Origin: Lama guanicoe
Lineage: Eukaryota
Assembly (NCBI GenBank): GCA_013239625.1
Contig: MU053873.1
Span: 3,610,524 to 3,636,674, forward strand
Reading direction: 5' to 3'
DNA length: 26,151 nt
Each line of letters begins with the position of its first letter. The stretch's first letter is position 1. Below the pieces are notes generated by a model, which saw nothing but the letters and a program-made list of their open reading frames with translations, had not been told where the DNA came from and ran no database searches. The position numbers and the translations under genes are program-made. Shown one piece after another: positions 11,927 to 24,051 of this stretch.

Positions 11927-11987
11927 GCCAGTGGTTCTCAATCACGGACGACTTTGCCAGTGGTTCTCAATCGCGGACGACTTTGCC
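11927..11987. repeat. 29-bp tandem duplication (2.1 copies, 1 mismatch)
   Basis: GCCAGTGGTTCTCAATCACGGACGACTTT (11927-11955) and GCCAGTGGTTCTCAATCGCGGACGACTTT (11956-11984). Confidence 0.97.
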
Positions 11988-14349: not shown

Positions 14350-14590
14350 GAGGAGGACGGAAAACACTCACTGAGACCCCACCATGGACACATGCTGTGC
14401 TAGGTGTTCCCTGTGCGTGACCTCCAAATACTATCCTCCGGAGCTGGGGACTGAGCTAGCATTATGGGCCCCGCTTTACACGGGGGAAACAGAGGCACAA
14501 AGAGACCAAGCAGCCTACCCAGAGTCCCACGGCAAGGGAGAGGCAGAACCGGGATTCCAACCCACAGCTCTGGGGCTCCACAACTCACTC
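14350..14590 (-). mobile_element. MIR SINE
   Basis: CCCGCTTTACACGGGGGAAACAGAGGCACAAAGAG...GGCAGAACCGGGATTCCAACCCA. Confidence 0.78.
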
Positions 14591-14600
14591 CCTTCAACAA

Positions 14601-15392
14601 CAGTGGCGTAGACACAACTGTAAAACTTTCAGGAGTCAGTTCTGAGCCAGTTGCTAAACACAGCCATTACTAAAAATTAAATGATACACACTTACGATGA
14701 AATGGATCCTATTAAAAGCAAAAGTAGGGAAGGGCCGAACCTTACCACTTCCTAATGACTACATTTGACTAGTACCTATGGTCTTGAGGTCATTGATGTC
14801 TACTGAATCTCGTAGTGAAAACACTAAGCCCCAGTCTGCCCCCCTTATCTGCAGGTTCACTTTCCCTGGTTTCAGTTACCCGCGGTCAACCTCAGTCCAA
14901 AAATATTACATGGAAAGTTCCAGAAATAAACAGTCCGCCTTTCTGAGTGGCGTGATGAAATCTCACACCGTCCCTCTCGGATTCCCAACCGTTGACATCA
15001 TCTGCCCTCGACATCCAACCATCGACACGGTCACGGCTCCAGGGTCCGGGACCACCCAGAGCTCAAGTGGTCCTCCCCCTGACCTGTCATCATCAGAAGG
15101 TCCCTGATAGCCTAACGCTGCGTCACCACGCCTACGCCACCCTCCTCGCTTCATCTCATCACGCGGGCATTTTGTCACCTTGCGTCATCCGACGATGAGG
15201 AGGGGGGAGTGCTGTGTGACAATGACGTGCTGCGCATCTTTCCCCGGCTCTGTGTGCACCAGCAGCTAGTTAGTAGCTTGCAGTCGGCCCTGGTGGGCGT
15301 ATTTACTCCACGGGAATAGACAAATCTACATAAAATAGGGGTTTCTCTCCCAAAGCCTCGGTTAATGTTAAACATTTACCAGCGGGCCACTG
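14601..15392 (+). mobile_element. MER63 (hAT-Blackjack, MER63B-like), split by a nested insertion; halves about 14601-14826 and 15221-15392
   Basis: Termini CAGTGG...CCACTG; left half GAGCCAGTTGCTAAACACAGCCATTACTAAAAATTAAAT; right half GGTGGGCGTATTTACTCCACGGGAAT...TGTTAAACATTTACCAGC. Confidence 0.85.
14832..15222 (+). mobile_element. MER44/Tigger7 (TcMar-Tigger) element lacking its right end
   Basis: CAGTCTGCCCCCTTATCTGCAGG...TTTCAGTTACCCGCGGTCAACC...GGAAAGTTCCAGAAATAAACA; later TCAGAAGGTC...TAGCCTAACGCTGCGTCAC. Confidence 0.85.
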
Positions 15393-16609
15393 TAACTAAC
15401 CCAACACCAACACAGTGTTCCCTCTGGTAAGGAATGACCTCGGTGACTTGTTGCCAGGGACCCCATTCTTTGCGAAATCCAAAAATACAACGTTCCCTGT
15501 GATATGCACCGATCCAGATTTCCTTCCTGAAATTTCTGACTTCCTGACGAGGAAAGCAAGAGGCATTTTGTCAGAGCGAAATAGCTGAGATTTGAAAACG
15601 ATGAAAAGAGGGAGGGAAAGTGAGAGTCATTGGGGGGTCCTCGGGTCACAGAGACGAAAAGGAGCTTGTTTAAACCCCAGGGACCACTCAGGAATCCAGA
15701 CAAGGAAGTGCACGCCCAGCGCCGCCCGGGCAGTGTCCTTCCCGATCACCCCAAATGGGGAGCACCCCGAAAGGCCAGGCAGAGGCGAGTAACGAGGGAG
15801 CACATGTGTGCACGACCGATGGTCACGTGGGCATTAACATTGGTCTTTACTAACGACAGACAAAACCCGCACGTCTTTTAAAGAACAGAAAGAGACGGAA
15901 GCTGGGAGATTTTGCTTTTGATGGAGGGAAAAAGACAGGAAGGAAATGTACTCAAATGCTAAGAGTGGTTTTCTTGGATGTTAGAATCACAGGTGGATTT
16001 TTTTGTTGCTGTTCAGGTTCTCTGCACTCCCCACACATGAAGCGAGTGCACCCCACTGTTTTAGTTGGAGGGCAGGGAGGGGTGGGGAGCTCAACATAAT
16101 TTCACACGAGCGGAGCCCTGTGGAGCAGCCAAGCCTTTGTTCCGCCCTGCACGCCACTCCAGGTCCCTCCCAGAGGCACCGACTCTGGGCCCAGCCTTTG
16201 GTCCCGGCTGGACCCATGAATGGGCCATTGTTCTGTGCGTGACATCATTCTGCTGCCTGCAGGATGAAGGGGAGACCTGGAATGGGGTGCGGCCAGCCCA
16301 AAATAAGGTGGCCCATTCTGCCTGCCTGTCCCCACCGTAGCAGAGGTGCAGTCACTGCACACTGGACTCTGGGGCTGCAATGAAGAACAGCGCCCCAGCT
16401 CCACACCCAAGGGGCGGCCTGAGGCCAGGGTACCTGGCAGGGCTCTGGACGAGCAGTGGCGGGCAGCATCGGCACAGATGGCTGGGGTCACTGCAGCTGG
16501 ACCCATTCCCCTGAAGCCCCTAGGTCTCCAGGGGAAACATGACAACCTGTGCCTGGCACATAGTAGGTGCTCAAGAACTGGTAGTGGTGGTTGTTATTCT
16601 GCTCTTGAT

Positions 16610-22191: not shown

Positions 22192-22539
22192 GGCGGACAA
22201 GCATTTGTGTCGGGGCTGAAGTGCCGGCACTTACAGATAAATCCACCGGCAGAGCCAGCCCCGCTCGTGTGCCGGCCCCGTCTGGATAGACACTGAATCC
22301 GGTATAAATCTCCCGACCGCTTCGGGGGAGCGAGCCAGTCCACCGTCGGGGGAATCACCACCACACGCCTCTCCCAGGCACAGGAGCAGGAAGCGGCTGG
22401 GCTCGACTGACAATGATTCTGGAAGAGGACACTTCCCCGGCTGGATCTATGGGACCCCCTCCTCCTCCTCCTCCTCCCTGGGGCGGGGAGGAGTTTTCAC
22501 ACTTGTTTTAATATCTTTAAAAAAACATAATAAGCTTAC

Positions 22540-22824
22540 AAGATCCGGTGGCTCCGAGTCCGGCTGCCTCTTCCTCAGGGAAGAAAATCTCTGCTGGCTG
22601 CGGGCCGAGAAGCGGCGGAAAGATTCCCGGCTCCGGGAAGCAAGGTGTCGGAAGGATGAGGTGCGCTTGAAGGAGGTCCGGCTGGCGGGCTCTCCGCTCG
22701 CCCGCTCGTGGCCCACCGTGGTGGTCACTAAGTTGAGGGCCTCCTGGAAGGACCGCCGGACGGTCCCCATCCACTGGGTCATGTGGCTTTGGGCCACCGT
22801 GAGTTTGTCTCCCAGGTAATCCAT
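22540..22824 (-). CDS. KIAA1671: Coding portion of a first (probably alternative, internal) exon, 95 aa; tentatively the N-terminus of a short KIAA1671 isoform
   Basis: ATG at 22824 (CCCATGG, G at +4); in-frame upstream TGA at 23004-23002; repeat-free, CpG-rich, protein-like sequence; ends CTT|GTAAGC, a phase-0 donor, after which the DNA turns A/T-rich. Gene identity is from recall of vertebrate KIAA1671 short isoforms and is less certain (about 0.55) than the exon itself. Confidence 0.75.
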
Positions 22825-23100
22825 GGGGCCGGGGGGAGAGGGAGGAAGGAGGTGAGATGTCAGGGCCCTCTCCCCTCTTCCTACTGTCCGCTCATGGAAG
22901 TTCTGGGCTCTCTTGAGAGAAAAGCCAGCAGCCCTCTTCAGCCGGACTGAGAGTAAATAGACATTGCTGAGCCAGCAGCTGGCGGCATCCTCGGGTCTCG
23001 CTCAGAACCGGAGGCGGTTCAGGGTCAGGCTGCGAGTCCACCCCCCGGAGTTGTGAGTAAACACGCCAGGAGCTCCAAGATCCAGTTCCCAGCACCCGCA

Positions 23101-23124
23101 GGCTGGCTGGCTGGCTGGCTGGCT
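23101..23124. repeat. (GGCT)6 tetranucleotide repeat
   Basis: Directly visible. Confidence 0.92.
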
Positions 23125-24051
23125 CGGGTGACGAGGAGCTTTGAGGAACTGGGTTGCCTCGCTGGCTCCAGGGCTTGACGGTCCCCAGAGGTGGGGGAAG
23201 GAAGAGGCAGTGGCCCCCAGGCACCCTCAGCCTCACTTTCTCCCAGGTAGGCGGCCCCCCGCAGGCACCCGCTGGAAGGACTGGGTGTCCCTCACTGTCT
23301 CTGCCCCGTGCCTGGTTGCCCGTGGCGGCGGGGACCCCGCTCACCTGACCTGTGCAGGTTTCCAGTCCTCCGGCCGGGGGTTCCAAACCTGTGGGCTGGC
23401 AGGCAGCTAGCTCATTTCCAGAGGCAGCCACCGGGGCCCCAGGTCCCCTGGCTCGGCAGCCCAGGATGACATCAGCCCCCGTTCTCAGCGAGGGGCTTCG
23501 CTGCCCAGGAATGCAGGAGGGGCCTCGGGGAGGTGGCCGCCCAGGGAGCTGACGTCCGCCTCTATTTGTTCTTCCCCCCAAGTCCCAACTCGCTCACCAT
23601 CCCGCGGGGCTGATGGTGGCTGCACGTGCCCGACAGCCTACTCGCCCTGTGCCCTGACCGCGGGCGCACGGGGAGATGCGGCGGCACGTGTGTGCGTGTG
23701 GGCGCATGTGTGCATGTATGTCGGAGATCTGGCAGCCCGGGGAAGGCTGGAACAGTTGGGAAACTGCCTCTAGGGTGACAGGCAGCAAGCGTCTTGGGAC
23801 CTCTGGCCGGTTGTCAGTCTGTCTCCCTCTGGCGGTCCGTTTCTCTGTCAGGTTCCCAGCCTCTCCTTCCTTCCCCTGTCTCCATTTCCACTTGTTCCTC
23901 CCTAAGCGTGCCTCCCTCTCTCTCTCCCTCCCTCTCTCCCTCTGTTCCAGCCTTCTCTCCCTCCCTCCCTGAAAGGCAACACCCAGCCAGGTGAAACAGC
24001 CCTCGAGGCCCCCCAAGGAAGGAACGGGGCCGGGCTGCATTTCAGTACAGG

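What the first reader, a model, noticed from the sequence alone, without database searches (positions are those of the whole stretch)
22567..22680. MARCKS-effector-like polybasic/Phe/Ser segment: candidate phospho-switchable membrane or calmodulin anchor
Seen: residues 49-86 (RTSFKRTSSFRHLASRSRESFRRFSARSQQRFSSLRKR) contain 13 Arg/Lys, 5 Phe, 10 Ser and only one acidic residue, arranged as quasi-repeats SFKR / SSFR / SFRRFS / RFSSLR. Established: the MARCKS effector domain uses clustered basic residues plus Phe to bind PIP2 membranes, calmodulin and actin, and is released by PKC phosphorylation. RRFS is a PKA consensus, S-F-K/R is a PKC consensus, and RxxS is a CaMK/AGC motif. Inference: the alternative N-terminus is a kinase-regulated localisation module.
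Basis: partly seen in the sequence, partly recalled or inferred. Interest (0 to 1): 0.7.

Follow-up and report, generated by a model that had tools for sequence, protein, structure and literature searches.

The report
Conserved basic helix of short KIAA1671
This stretch belongs to a starting exon, kept from sharks to mammals, that gives the actin-associated protein KIAA1671 a database-annotated but apparently unstudied short form; it is predicted to fold into a positively charged helix that likely holds this form on membranes until kinases would release it.

Summary
The counts are exact. The segment is residues 49-86 of a 95-codon exon (minus strand, 22824-22540, phase-0 GT donor) that starts the ~390-aa short KIAA1671 isoform. 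That isoform is annotated from shark to mammals; 0 of 120 long isoforms carry the exon. Residues 52-86 are the most conserved 35-residue window of the isoform. The MARCKS likeness is compositional only: no homology, no Gly2, Arg instead of Lys, lower charge density. A second, neutral amphipathic helix precedes it (2-37), and S57 sits in an aPKC-type F-5/R-3/R+2 context. A diverged teleost duplicate keeps the pattern at 11-17 of 24 identity. Best reading (0.5): a kinase-releasable membrane anchor of the Lgl/basic-hydrophobic kind on a C-terminus that may bind capping protein. Main rival (0.27): a protein-docking helix. No binding, localisation or phosphorylation is shown. I found no paper on the isoform, and the scan had no look-alike on other DNA.

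The parts
22540..22824 (-). Coding part (95 codons) of the first coding exon specific to the short (~390-aa) KIAA1671 isoform
   Evidence: translation; 99 homologues, 98 of them aligned over 80-100% of the exon; 0 of 120 long isoforms match, best E 0.58; short and long share sequence only from residue 96 on, 5 of 5 pairs
22534..22539 (-). Phase-0 splice donor (GT) after codon 95
   Evidence: sequence; junction position agrees with 5 of 5 short/long pairs
22567..22656 (-). Residues 57-86: Arg-rich 11-residue-period segment, predicted amphipathic helix (F58/F69/F80 and L61/F72/L83 flank S65/S76 on one face), net charge +9
   Evidence: hydrophobic moment 0.41 at 98 degrees, p=0.0045 against shuffles, 0.024 after scanning angles; lag-11 self-similarity p=0.003, best of 17 lags; AlphaFold helix 51-85 at low confidence
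22648..22671 (-). Residues 52-59: S57 with Phe at -5, Arg at -3, Phe at +1 and Arg at +2, an aPKC/PKC-type site context
   Evidence: S57, R54, R59 in 99 of 99; F/L at 52 in 98 of 99; F/L at 58 in 99 of 99; motif described in PMC4998004 passages
22672..22713 (-). Residues 38-51: variable linker
   Evidence: mean column conservation 0.69, no column at 98%; length varies and it turns acidic in teleost paralog B
22714..22821 (-). Residues 2-37: net-neutral predicted amphipathic helix with invariant W18, G20, R23, S25, A29
   Evidence: moment 0.40 at 99 degrees, p=0.004 after angle scan; p about 0.001 or less in 5 of 5 rows tested, three teleost and one shark-like included; AlphaFold helix 2-42; conservation 0.90
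22825..23004 (-). Sequence upstream of the ATG (likely 5' leader): in-frame stop at 23002-23004 and three short out-of-frame ATG frames (22988, 22964, 22895)
   Evidence: transcription start not mapped

Best explanation
The segment is the Arg-rich half of a two-part N-terminal head unique to the short KIAA1671 isoform; it is predicted to fold as an amphipathic helix that likely binds acidic membrane, and phosphorylation of its invariant serines would likely release it. Shown: the exon, its isoform specificity, its conservation, the 11-residue spacing and the kinase-type contexts. Inferred: on a bilayer, residues 57-86 form a 3-11 helix with Phe/Leu and small Ser facing lipid and Arg meeting the phosphates. 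Helix 2-37 supplies the hydrophobic anchor that myristate supplies in MARCKS. PKC-family kinases (S57, S68, S82) or PKA (S73) add phosphate at or near the edge of the buried face; several sites are probably needed. Inferred purpose: the isoform drops about 1,500 residues of the long form but keeps the region likened to the capping-protein-binding part of TNKS1BP1 (short residues about 202-296). It would place that region at a membrane, as CARMIL's basic-hydrophobic motif does for its CPI motif.
For: Residues 52-86 score 0.954 mean column conservation against 0.879 for the best 35-mer after the exon (85 full-length rows). Both helices peak at 97-99 degrees, the 3-11 geometry of lipid-folded 11-mer repeats (PMC5889406 passages). 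A BH-type score exceeds 0.6 in this core in 85 of 85 full-length rows (scale values recalled; window and threshold from PMC6960411). Scoring four serines as acidic cuts residues above threshold from 12 to 2. Teleost paralog B (tree) is only 11-17 of 24 identical, yet keeps net charge +5 to +11 and a significant moment in 15 of 22 rows. It also keeps S68 and S73 in 30 of 30 and hydrophobic residues at 58, 61, 69 and 72 in 30 of 30. Precedent for the mechanism: Lgl, Numb, Miranda, Rad. Phe/Leu in a polybasic domain favour plasma membrane over nucleus (PMC4621827 citing Heo 2006).
Against: No experiment. Ten Arg positions never exchange for Lys in 99 rows, and A62, S63 and Q78 are invariant, which is stricter than lipid binding needs. 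The hydrophobic face is thin: mean hydrophobicity of 18-mers is -0.17 to +0.11. BH peaks are modest (0.67-0.84), and the C-terminal basic stretch scores as high; the exon holds the top peak in only 40 of 85 rows. The BH authors warn that such sites can bind proteins instead. The moment is weaker with other boundaries: 52-86 gives p=0.15 after the angle scan. In 3 of 3 teleost A rows tested the 30-mer gives p=0.16-0.22 because the third repeat has a one-residue deletion; their 24-mers give p about 0.04. 7 of 22 paralog B rows miss p<0.05. Rows are related, not independent. AlphaFold confidence is low (pLDDT 64.9, pTM 0.32). The stretch that Gaeta and Tyska aligned to the CARMIL1 CPI (long 1013-1137) is absent from the short form.
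Confidence: 0.5

Rival explanations
1. The segment is a docking helix for a specific protein. The same spacing reads as a hendecad coiled-coil core (a = F58/F69/F80, d = L61/F72/L83, e = A62/S73, h = S65/S76; scheme recalled). It would pack on an acidic partner, actin or microtubules, a kinase, or helix 2-37, and phosphorylation would switch that interaction.
For: Invariant polar-face and small residues (A62, S63, Q78 in 99 of 99; Q77 in 98 of 99) and no R-to-K exchange at ten Arg positions. Low hydrophobicity with Ser at the centre of the face.
Against: Paralog B changes many of these residues (S63 to R in 16 of 30, R79 to T in 15 of 30) while keeping charge, face and S68/S73. Net +9 disfavours self-pairing. 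AlphaFold gives pTM 0.32 for the two-helix model.
Confidence: 0.27
2. The segment is mainly a Ca2+/calmodulin-binding basic amphipathic helix; this can coexist with membrane binding.
For: Basic amphipathic helix with PKC-type serines. Bulky residues 11 apart (58/69, 61/72, 69/80, 72/83) fit a 1-12 anchor spacing (motif class recalled, very common).
Against: No IQ motif and no 1-5-10 or 1-8-14 spacing from F58, L61, F69 or F72 (read from the sequence; motif definitions recalled). No match to any solved calmodulin-target peptide at E<=10, which is a weak test.
Confidence: 0.1
3. The Arg/Ser-rich segment is a nuclear or nucleolar import or RNA-binding signal, so the short isoform is nuclear.
For: 11 Arg with an RKR end. 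Weak language-model likeness to nuclear PIMREG clusters, 0.76-0.78, below the tool's 0.9 mark.
Against: PIMREG is not among the 61 profile hits, and the segment alone gives no atlas hit. Conserved periodic Phe/Leu are not needed for an NLS. The shared C-terminus belongs to an actin-associated protein.
Confidence: 0.07
4. The exon is a mitochondrial targeting sequence (Arg/Ser-rich amphipathic helices, few acids).
For: Composition of residues 15-37 and 49-86.
Against: D6 in 98 of 98 and an acid at 2 in 97 of 98 rows; net charge 0 over 2-37. Presequences usually diverge fast (own knowledge), whereas this is the best-conserved part of the protein. No dedicated predictor was run.
Confidence: 0.05

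Closest known systems
Annotated short KIAA1671 isoforms (e.g. 'KIAA1671 homolog isoform X2' of Hyaena, Pan paniscus, Mus caroli, Danio rerio; Pfam PF15327 at the C-terminus)
   Same: Same exon, 54-96% identical over the 95 residues, joined to the same ~295 C-terminal residues.
   Different: Nothing: this is that exon. It has database names but no Pfam family. The one dedicated paper studies the 1806-aa form and never uses the word isoform.
Lgl polybasic (basic-hydrophobic) domain; also Numb, Miranda, Rad C-terminus
   Same: Arg/Lys plus Leu/Phe with embedded PKC-type serines. The S68 context (Arg -2, Phe +1, Arg +2) equals that described for Llgl2 S653; S57 fits the F-5/R-3 aPKC mode.
   Different: No detectable homology. 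Lgl's sites are 4 apart in a propeller loop; here the PKC-type sites are at 57, 68 and 82 in an N-terminal head with an 11-residue period. Function is shown for Lgl and only predicted here.
MARCKS effector domain
   Same: 13 basic residues, 5 Phe and PKC-type Ser-Phe-basic motifs.
   Different: MARCKS packs them into 25 residues, almost all Lys, with Phe at 158/160/164/169/171, binds without secondary structure and is myristoylated. Here they span 38 residues, are mostly Arg and helically spaced, and there is no Gly2.
11-mer-repeat lipid-binding helices (alpha-synuclein, perilipins, CCTalpha, apolipoproteins)
   Same: 11-residue period and best moment at 97-99 degrees.
   Different: Only about three repeats, Arg-rich with Ser in the buried face, and no homology found.
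CARMIL capping-protein-binding region (CPI + CSI + basic-hydrophobic membrane motif)
   Same: A basic-hydrophobic motif in the same disordered chain as a putative capping-protein-binding region.
   Different: Here the motif lies about 120 residues N-terminal to that region, comes from an alternative exon and is full of kinase sites. Direct capping-protein binding of KIAA1671 is not shown.

Membership tests
KIAA1671 short isoform | Exon joined to the PF15327-bearing C-terminus and absent from the long form | tested here: met
   0 of 120 long isoforms; junction at residue 96 in 5 of 5 pairs
MARCKS family | Sequence homology to MARCKS | tested here: not met
   0 Pfam families at E<=10 for the exon; no such hit in PDB sequences or among 61 profile hits from 1.84 billion proteins
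MARCKS family | N-terminal Gly2 myristoylation site | tested here: not met
   Residue 2 is Asp, Glu or Gln in 168 of 179 rows; the start pattern did not match in 11
MARCKS effector domain | 13 basic residues and 5 Phe within 25 residues, Lys-dominated | tested here: not met
   Same counts but over 38 residues, 11 Arg and 2 Lys; at most 9 basic in 25 (counted from the sequence); MARCKS figures
MARCKS effector domain | Binds membrane without secondary structure | tested here: inconclusive
   Helical periodicity and an AlphaFold helix argue for a different mode; prediction only
MARCKS effector domain | Binds calmodulin, PIP2 and actin; released by PKC | not testable with these tools
   needs biochemistry
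Phospho-regulated basic-hydrophobic motif (Lgl/Numb/Miranda kind) | BH score above 0.6 | tested here: met
   0.67-0.84 in the window protein; above 0.6 in 85 of 85 full-length rows; residue scale recalled, window and threshold
Phospho-regulated basic-hydrophobic motif (Lgl/Numb/Miranda kind) | Conserved PKC/aPKC-type sites inside the motif | tested here: met
   S57, S68, S73, S82 in 99 of 99 rows; contexts compared with passages; motif match only
Phospho-regulated basic-hydrophobic motif (Lgl/Numb/Miranda kind) | Direct membrane binding lost on phosphorylation | not testable with these tools
   only a score simulation
11-mer-repeat amphipathic helix | 11-residue period with a 3-11 hydrophobic face | tested here: met
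   lag 11 p=0.003 (about 0.05 over 17 lags); moment p=0.0045 to 0.024; third repeat out of register in the teleost A rows tested
11-mer-repeat amphipathic helix | Folds only on contact with lipid | not testable with these tools
   needs CD or NMR
CPI-motif capping-protein regulators | CPI motif that binds capping protein | tested here: inconclusive
   The region aligned to TNKS1BP1's CAPZA2-binding part maps to short residues about 202-296; the region aligned to CARMIL1's CPI is absent; the consensus was not available as text
Mitochondrial presequence | Net-positive, acid-free, fast-evolving N-terminus | tested here: not met
   conserved acids at 2 and 6, net 0 over 2-37, conservation 0.90; criteria recalled

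The most novel reading that the evidence does not exclude
Jawed vertebrates keep a second KIAA1671 protein that works as a polarity-controlled capping-protein adaptor: twin 3-11 helices hold it on acidic membrane, and aPKC phosphorylation starting at S57 strips it from the apical surface, Lgl-style. That would tie Par polarity directly to where actin barbed ends are capped, and endogenous KIAA1671 signals assigned to the 1806-aa form could partly come from this form.
Probability: 0.12. Interest if true: 0.75.

Novelty: new member of a known kind. Interest (0 to 1): 0.43.

Why it matters
KIAA1671 marks sites of microvillus growth and appears in junction proximity screens, but only the long form has been examined. 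A short form with a head more conserved than its named Pfam domain, kept across jawed vertebrates and in both teleost duplicates, is a ready experimental target. If the head is a kinase-switched membrane anchor, it gives a direct way to test how a putative capping-protein binder is placed and removed at membranes. The class of mechanism is well known, so the surprise is moderate. A practical point: every tryptic peptide from residue 50 to 86 is 5 residues or shorter, so standard phosphoproteomics would miss these sites.

Tried and rejected
No whole genome is held, so the downstream exons and the intron length were not seen; no other short- or long-isoform exon lies in the window. RNA runs: 5 rows on record as RNA, in 2 studies, hold 0.41-0.46 of the words of window 22300-23600, and 6 unlabelled runs hold 0.86-0.93. 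No reads were laid, so this is not counted as evidence, and the transcription start and junction in this species stay open. A homodimer prediction for residues 1-88 was not available: no verdict. PDB sequence searches gave only chance hits (CnrY E 0.57; a reelin peptide E 0.66). The PIMREG lead was dropped: the score is below the tool's mark, the segment alone has no hit, and PIMREG is not among the profile hits. One search found 170 proteins at E<=10 but listed only the best 120, so 50 weaker ones were not seen. P0292 is an unrelated tandem-repeat protein matched by chance. The label '182 kDa tankyrase-1-binding protein' on herring and sardine rows was not accepted as showing that TNKS1BP1 has this exon: the tree groups them with teleost KIAA1671 at 100/100, though no true TNKS1BP1 row and no root were included. 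CpG content near the exon is marginal (o/e 0.47-0.61; 0.70 elsewhere in the window) and was not used. The original BH paper is not held. No fold search was run on the low-confidence two-helix model. Artefact reading rejected on conservation and on transcript-sized contigs.

Full report
What is there. The flagged 114 bases read on the minus strand as residues 49-86 of an ORF that starts at 22824. The counts are exactly as stated: 11 Arg, 2 Lys, 5 Phe, 10 Ser, 1 Glu. A GT donor follows codon 95 at 22539, and an in-frame stop lies 60 codons upstream of the ATG. A search with these 95 residues returned 99 proteins among 215 candidates, none longer than 492 aa; the named ones are almost all KIAA1671 homologues of about 390 aa carrying PF15327. 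The profile of the exon finds nothing in 120 long isoforms (best E 0.58). In 5 of 5 short/long pairs the shared sequence begins right after the exon. So this is the first coding exon of a short isoform. No other exon of the gene lies in the window. 15 of the 99 rows are complete PF15327-bearing proteins known only from Logan contigs of 1.4-6.3 kb. Since no further exon follows within 22 kb here, I infer these are spliced transcripts. An earlier scan note calls this genome camelid; I did not test that.

Conservation. Over 85 full-length rows, residues 52-86 have mean column conservation 0.954; the best 35-residue window after the exon reaches 0.879 and PF15327 averages 0.76. Seventeen positions in the segment are identical in 99 of 99 rows (P0100, a frameshifted model, was left out). 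With teleosts added, 144 of 149 rows could be anchored (six rows dropped beforehand as spurious, frameshifted or partial); S57, S68, S73 and S76 are Ser in 144 of 144, and positions 58, 61, 69, 72 and 80 are always Phe, Leu or Ile. One detail does not hold: S51 is Ser in 2 of 99 rows and Pro in 92. A profile search of 1.84 billion representatives gave 61 hits. The ten looked up were named fish proteins of this family, 12 of 16 scanned carry PF15327, and one is an unrelated repeat protein. I saw no MARCKS, Lgl or PIMREG among them and no named invertebrate; one unnamed row (P0096) branches beside the sharks.

Anatomy. The exon has two conserved blocks and a variable linker. In residues 57-86, F58, F69, F80 and L61, F72, L83 fall 11 apart. 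Self-similarity peaks at lag 11 (p=0.003, about 0.05 over 17 lags). The hydrophobic moment peaks at 98 degrees (0.41; p=0.0045, or 0.024 after scanning 90-110 degrees) (scale recalled). On that wheel S65 and S76 sit mid-face, S57, S68 and S73 at its edges and Arg beyond. Boundaries were chosen after inspection, and 52-86 gives p=0.15. Residues 2-37 form a neutral, more hydrophobic helix (0.40 at 99 degrees, p=0.004). AlphaFold draws helices 2-42 and 51-85 at low confidence (pLDDT 64.9, pTM 0.32). A diverged teleost group, placed with teleost KIAA1671 in an unrooted tree, is 11-17 of 24 identical over the first two repeats. It stays basic, keeps a significant moment in 15 of 22 rows and keeps S68 and S73 in 30 of 30. 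In three teleost A rows the third repeat is one residue short and only the 24-mer is significant.

Kinase contexts. S57, S68 and S82 have a hydrophobic residue at +1 and a basic one at +2; S73 has Arg at -3 and -2; S25 has an Aurora-type context (labels recalled; conservation 99 of 99 each). S57 has Phe -5, Arg -3 and Arg +2, the anchor described for aPKC substrates (PMC4998004, passages). S68 matches the Arg -2, Phe +1, Arg +2 contacts described for Llgl2 S653 (PMC11996676, passages). These are motif matches, not evidence of phosphorylation.

Mechanism. I favour a kinase-releasable membrane anchor (0.5). A BH-type score passes 0.6 in 85 of 85 rows and falls from 12 residues above threshold to 2 when four serines are scored as acidic (scale recalled; window and threshold from PMC6960411 passages). 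The same logic is established for Lgl, Numb, Miranda and Rad (PMC4621827, PMC6020718, PMC10904049; passages). Against it: the peaks are modest, the C-terminal basic stretch scores as high, the face is thin, and ten Arg positions never become Lys, which suggests a protein partner or kinase recognition. A docking-helix reading gets 0.27, calmodulin 0.10, nuclear 0.07 and mitochondrial 0.05. As for purpose, Gaeta and Tyska (PMC10092648; abstract, introduction, two result sections and term passages read) report that long residues 1617-1711 resemble the CAPZA2-binding part of TNKS1BP1 and cite an affinity-purification hit with CAPZA2; I saw those primary papers only as citations. Counting from the C-terminus, that region is short residues about 202-296, while their CARMIL1-like stretch (1013-1137) is absent from the short form. 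CARMIL pairs its capping-protein motif with a basic-hydrophobic membrane motif (bioRxiv 10.64898/2026.01.05.697744, passages), which is the analogy I draw.

Comparison with MARCKS. The effector domain has 13 basic residues and 5 Phe in 25 residues and is cited as binding without secondary structure (bioRxiv 10.1101/2023.08.16.553551, passage; PMC13516693, abstract and passages). MARCKS is myristoylated (PMC5424795, passage). Here the same counts spread over 38 residues, Arg dominates, the spacing is helical and residue 2 is Asp, Glu or Gln. It may work like MARCKS in switch logic, but it is not a member. The 11-mer geometry recalls alpha-synuclein and perilipins (PMC5889406, passages), again without homology.

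Novelty. The isoform is in RefSeq and UniRef, so its existence is known. I found no paper on it: 133 papers hold the gene name (40 listed), 19 hold the mouse name, 31 hold the name plus 'isoform' and none of 25 listed for alternative-promoter terms holds the name. For these I saw only titles and abstract openings, apart from passages of PMC11581034 and PMC8769072. The library lacks most subscription journals, and supplements were not searched; proteomic tables could list these peptides. The scan's own index had no look-alike. Verdict: a real, strongly conserved, apparently unstudied module, best filed as a predicted new member of the phospho-regulated basic-hydrophobic anchors. Interest 0.43.

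Noticed in passing
window 22672-22674 (codon 51, minus strand): Ser51 is lineage-specific (2 of 99 rows; Pro in 92), giving this species and pig an extra PKC-type site.
   Followed up: yes
P0271-P0293, P0295 (teleost paralog B): A Pro follows the S57-equivalent position in 20 of 22 rows, with Ser/Thr before it in 17 of those 20. This swaps a PKC-type context for a proline-directed one and could cap the helix start. The linker also turns acidic.
   Followed up: partly
P0274, P0276: Herring and sardine rows are labelled TNKS1BP1 but group with teleost KIAA1671; probably a mislabelled duplicate.
   Followed up: partly
P0267, P0290, P0296: Three fish gene models carry the exon internally in a longer protein; either prediction errors or real inclusion.
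   Followed up: no
P0095, P0109: The coelacanth row is named crystallin beta B3 and a sturgeon model joins the exon to a crystallin domain, probably from the neighbouring gene.
   Followed up: no
shared exon, about residue 100 of the short isoform (outside the window): A Cys just after the junction is kept from sharks to mammals but missing in the teleost rows aligned; a possible palmitoylation site next to the basic helix.
   Followed up: no
window 22883-22988 (minus strand): Three short out-of-frame ATG frames (16, 8 and 4 codons) end just upstream of the start codon; possible uORFs if the leader reaches that far.
   Followed up: no
window 22567-22677: All tryptic peptides from residue 50 to 86 are 5 residues or shorter, so standard mass spectrometry would not see these sites.
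   Followed up: yes
window 14501-16000: An intronic stretch has the window's highest CpG ratio (o/e 0.62-0.70); not examined.
   Followed up: no
window 11927-11987: A 29-base unit in 2.1 near-perfect tandem copies.
   Followed up: no
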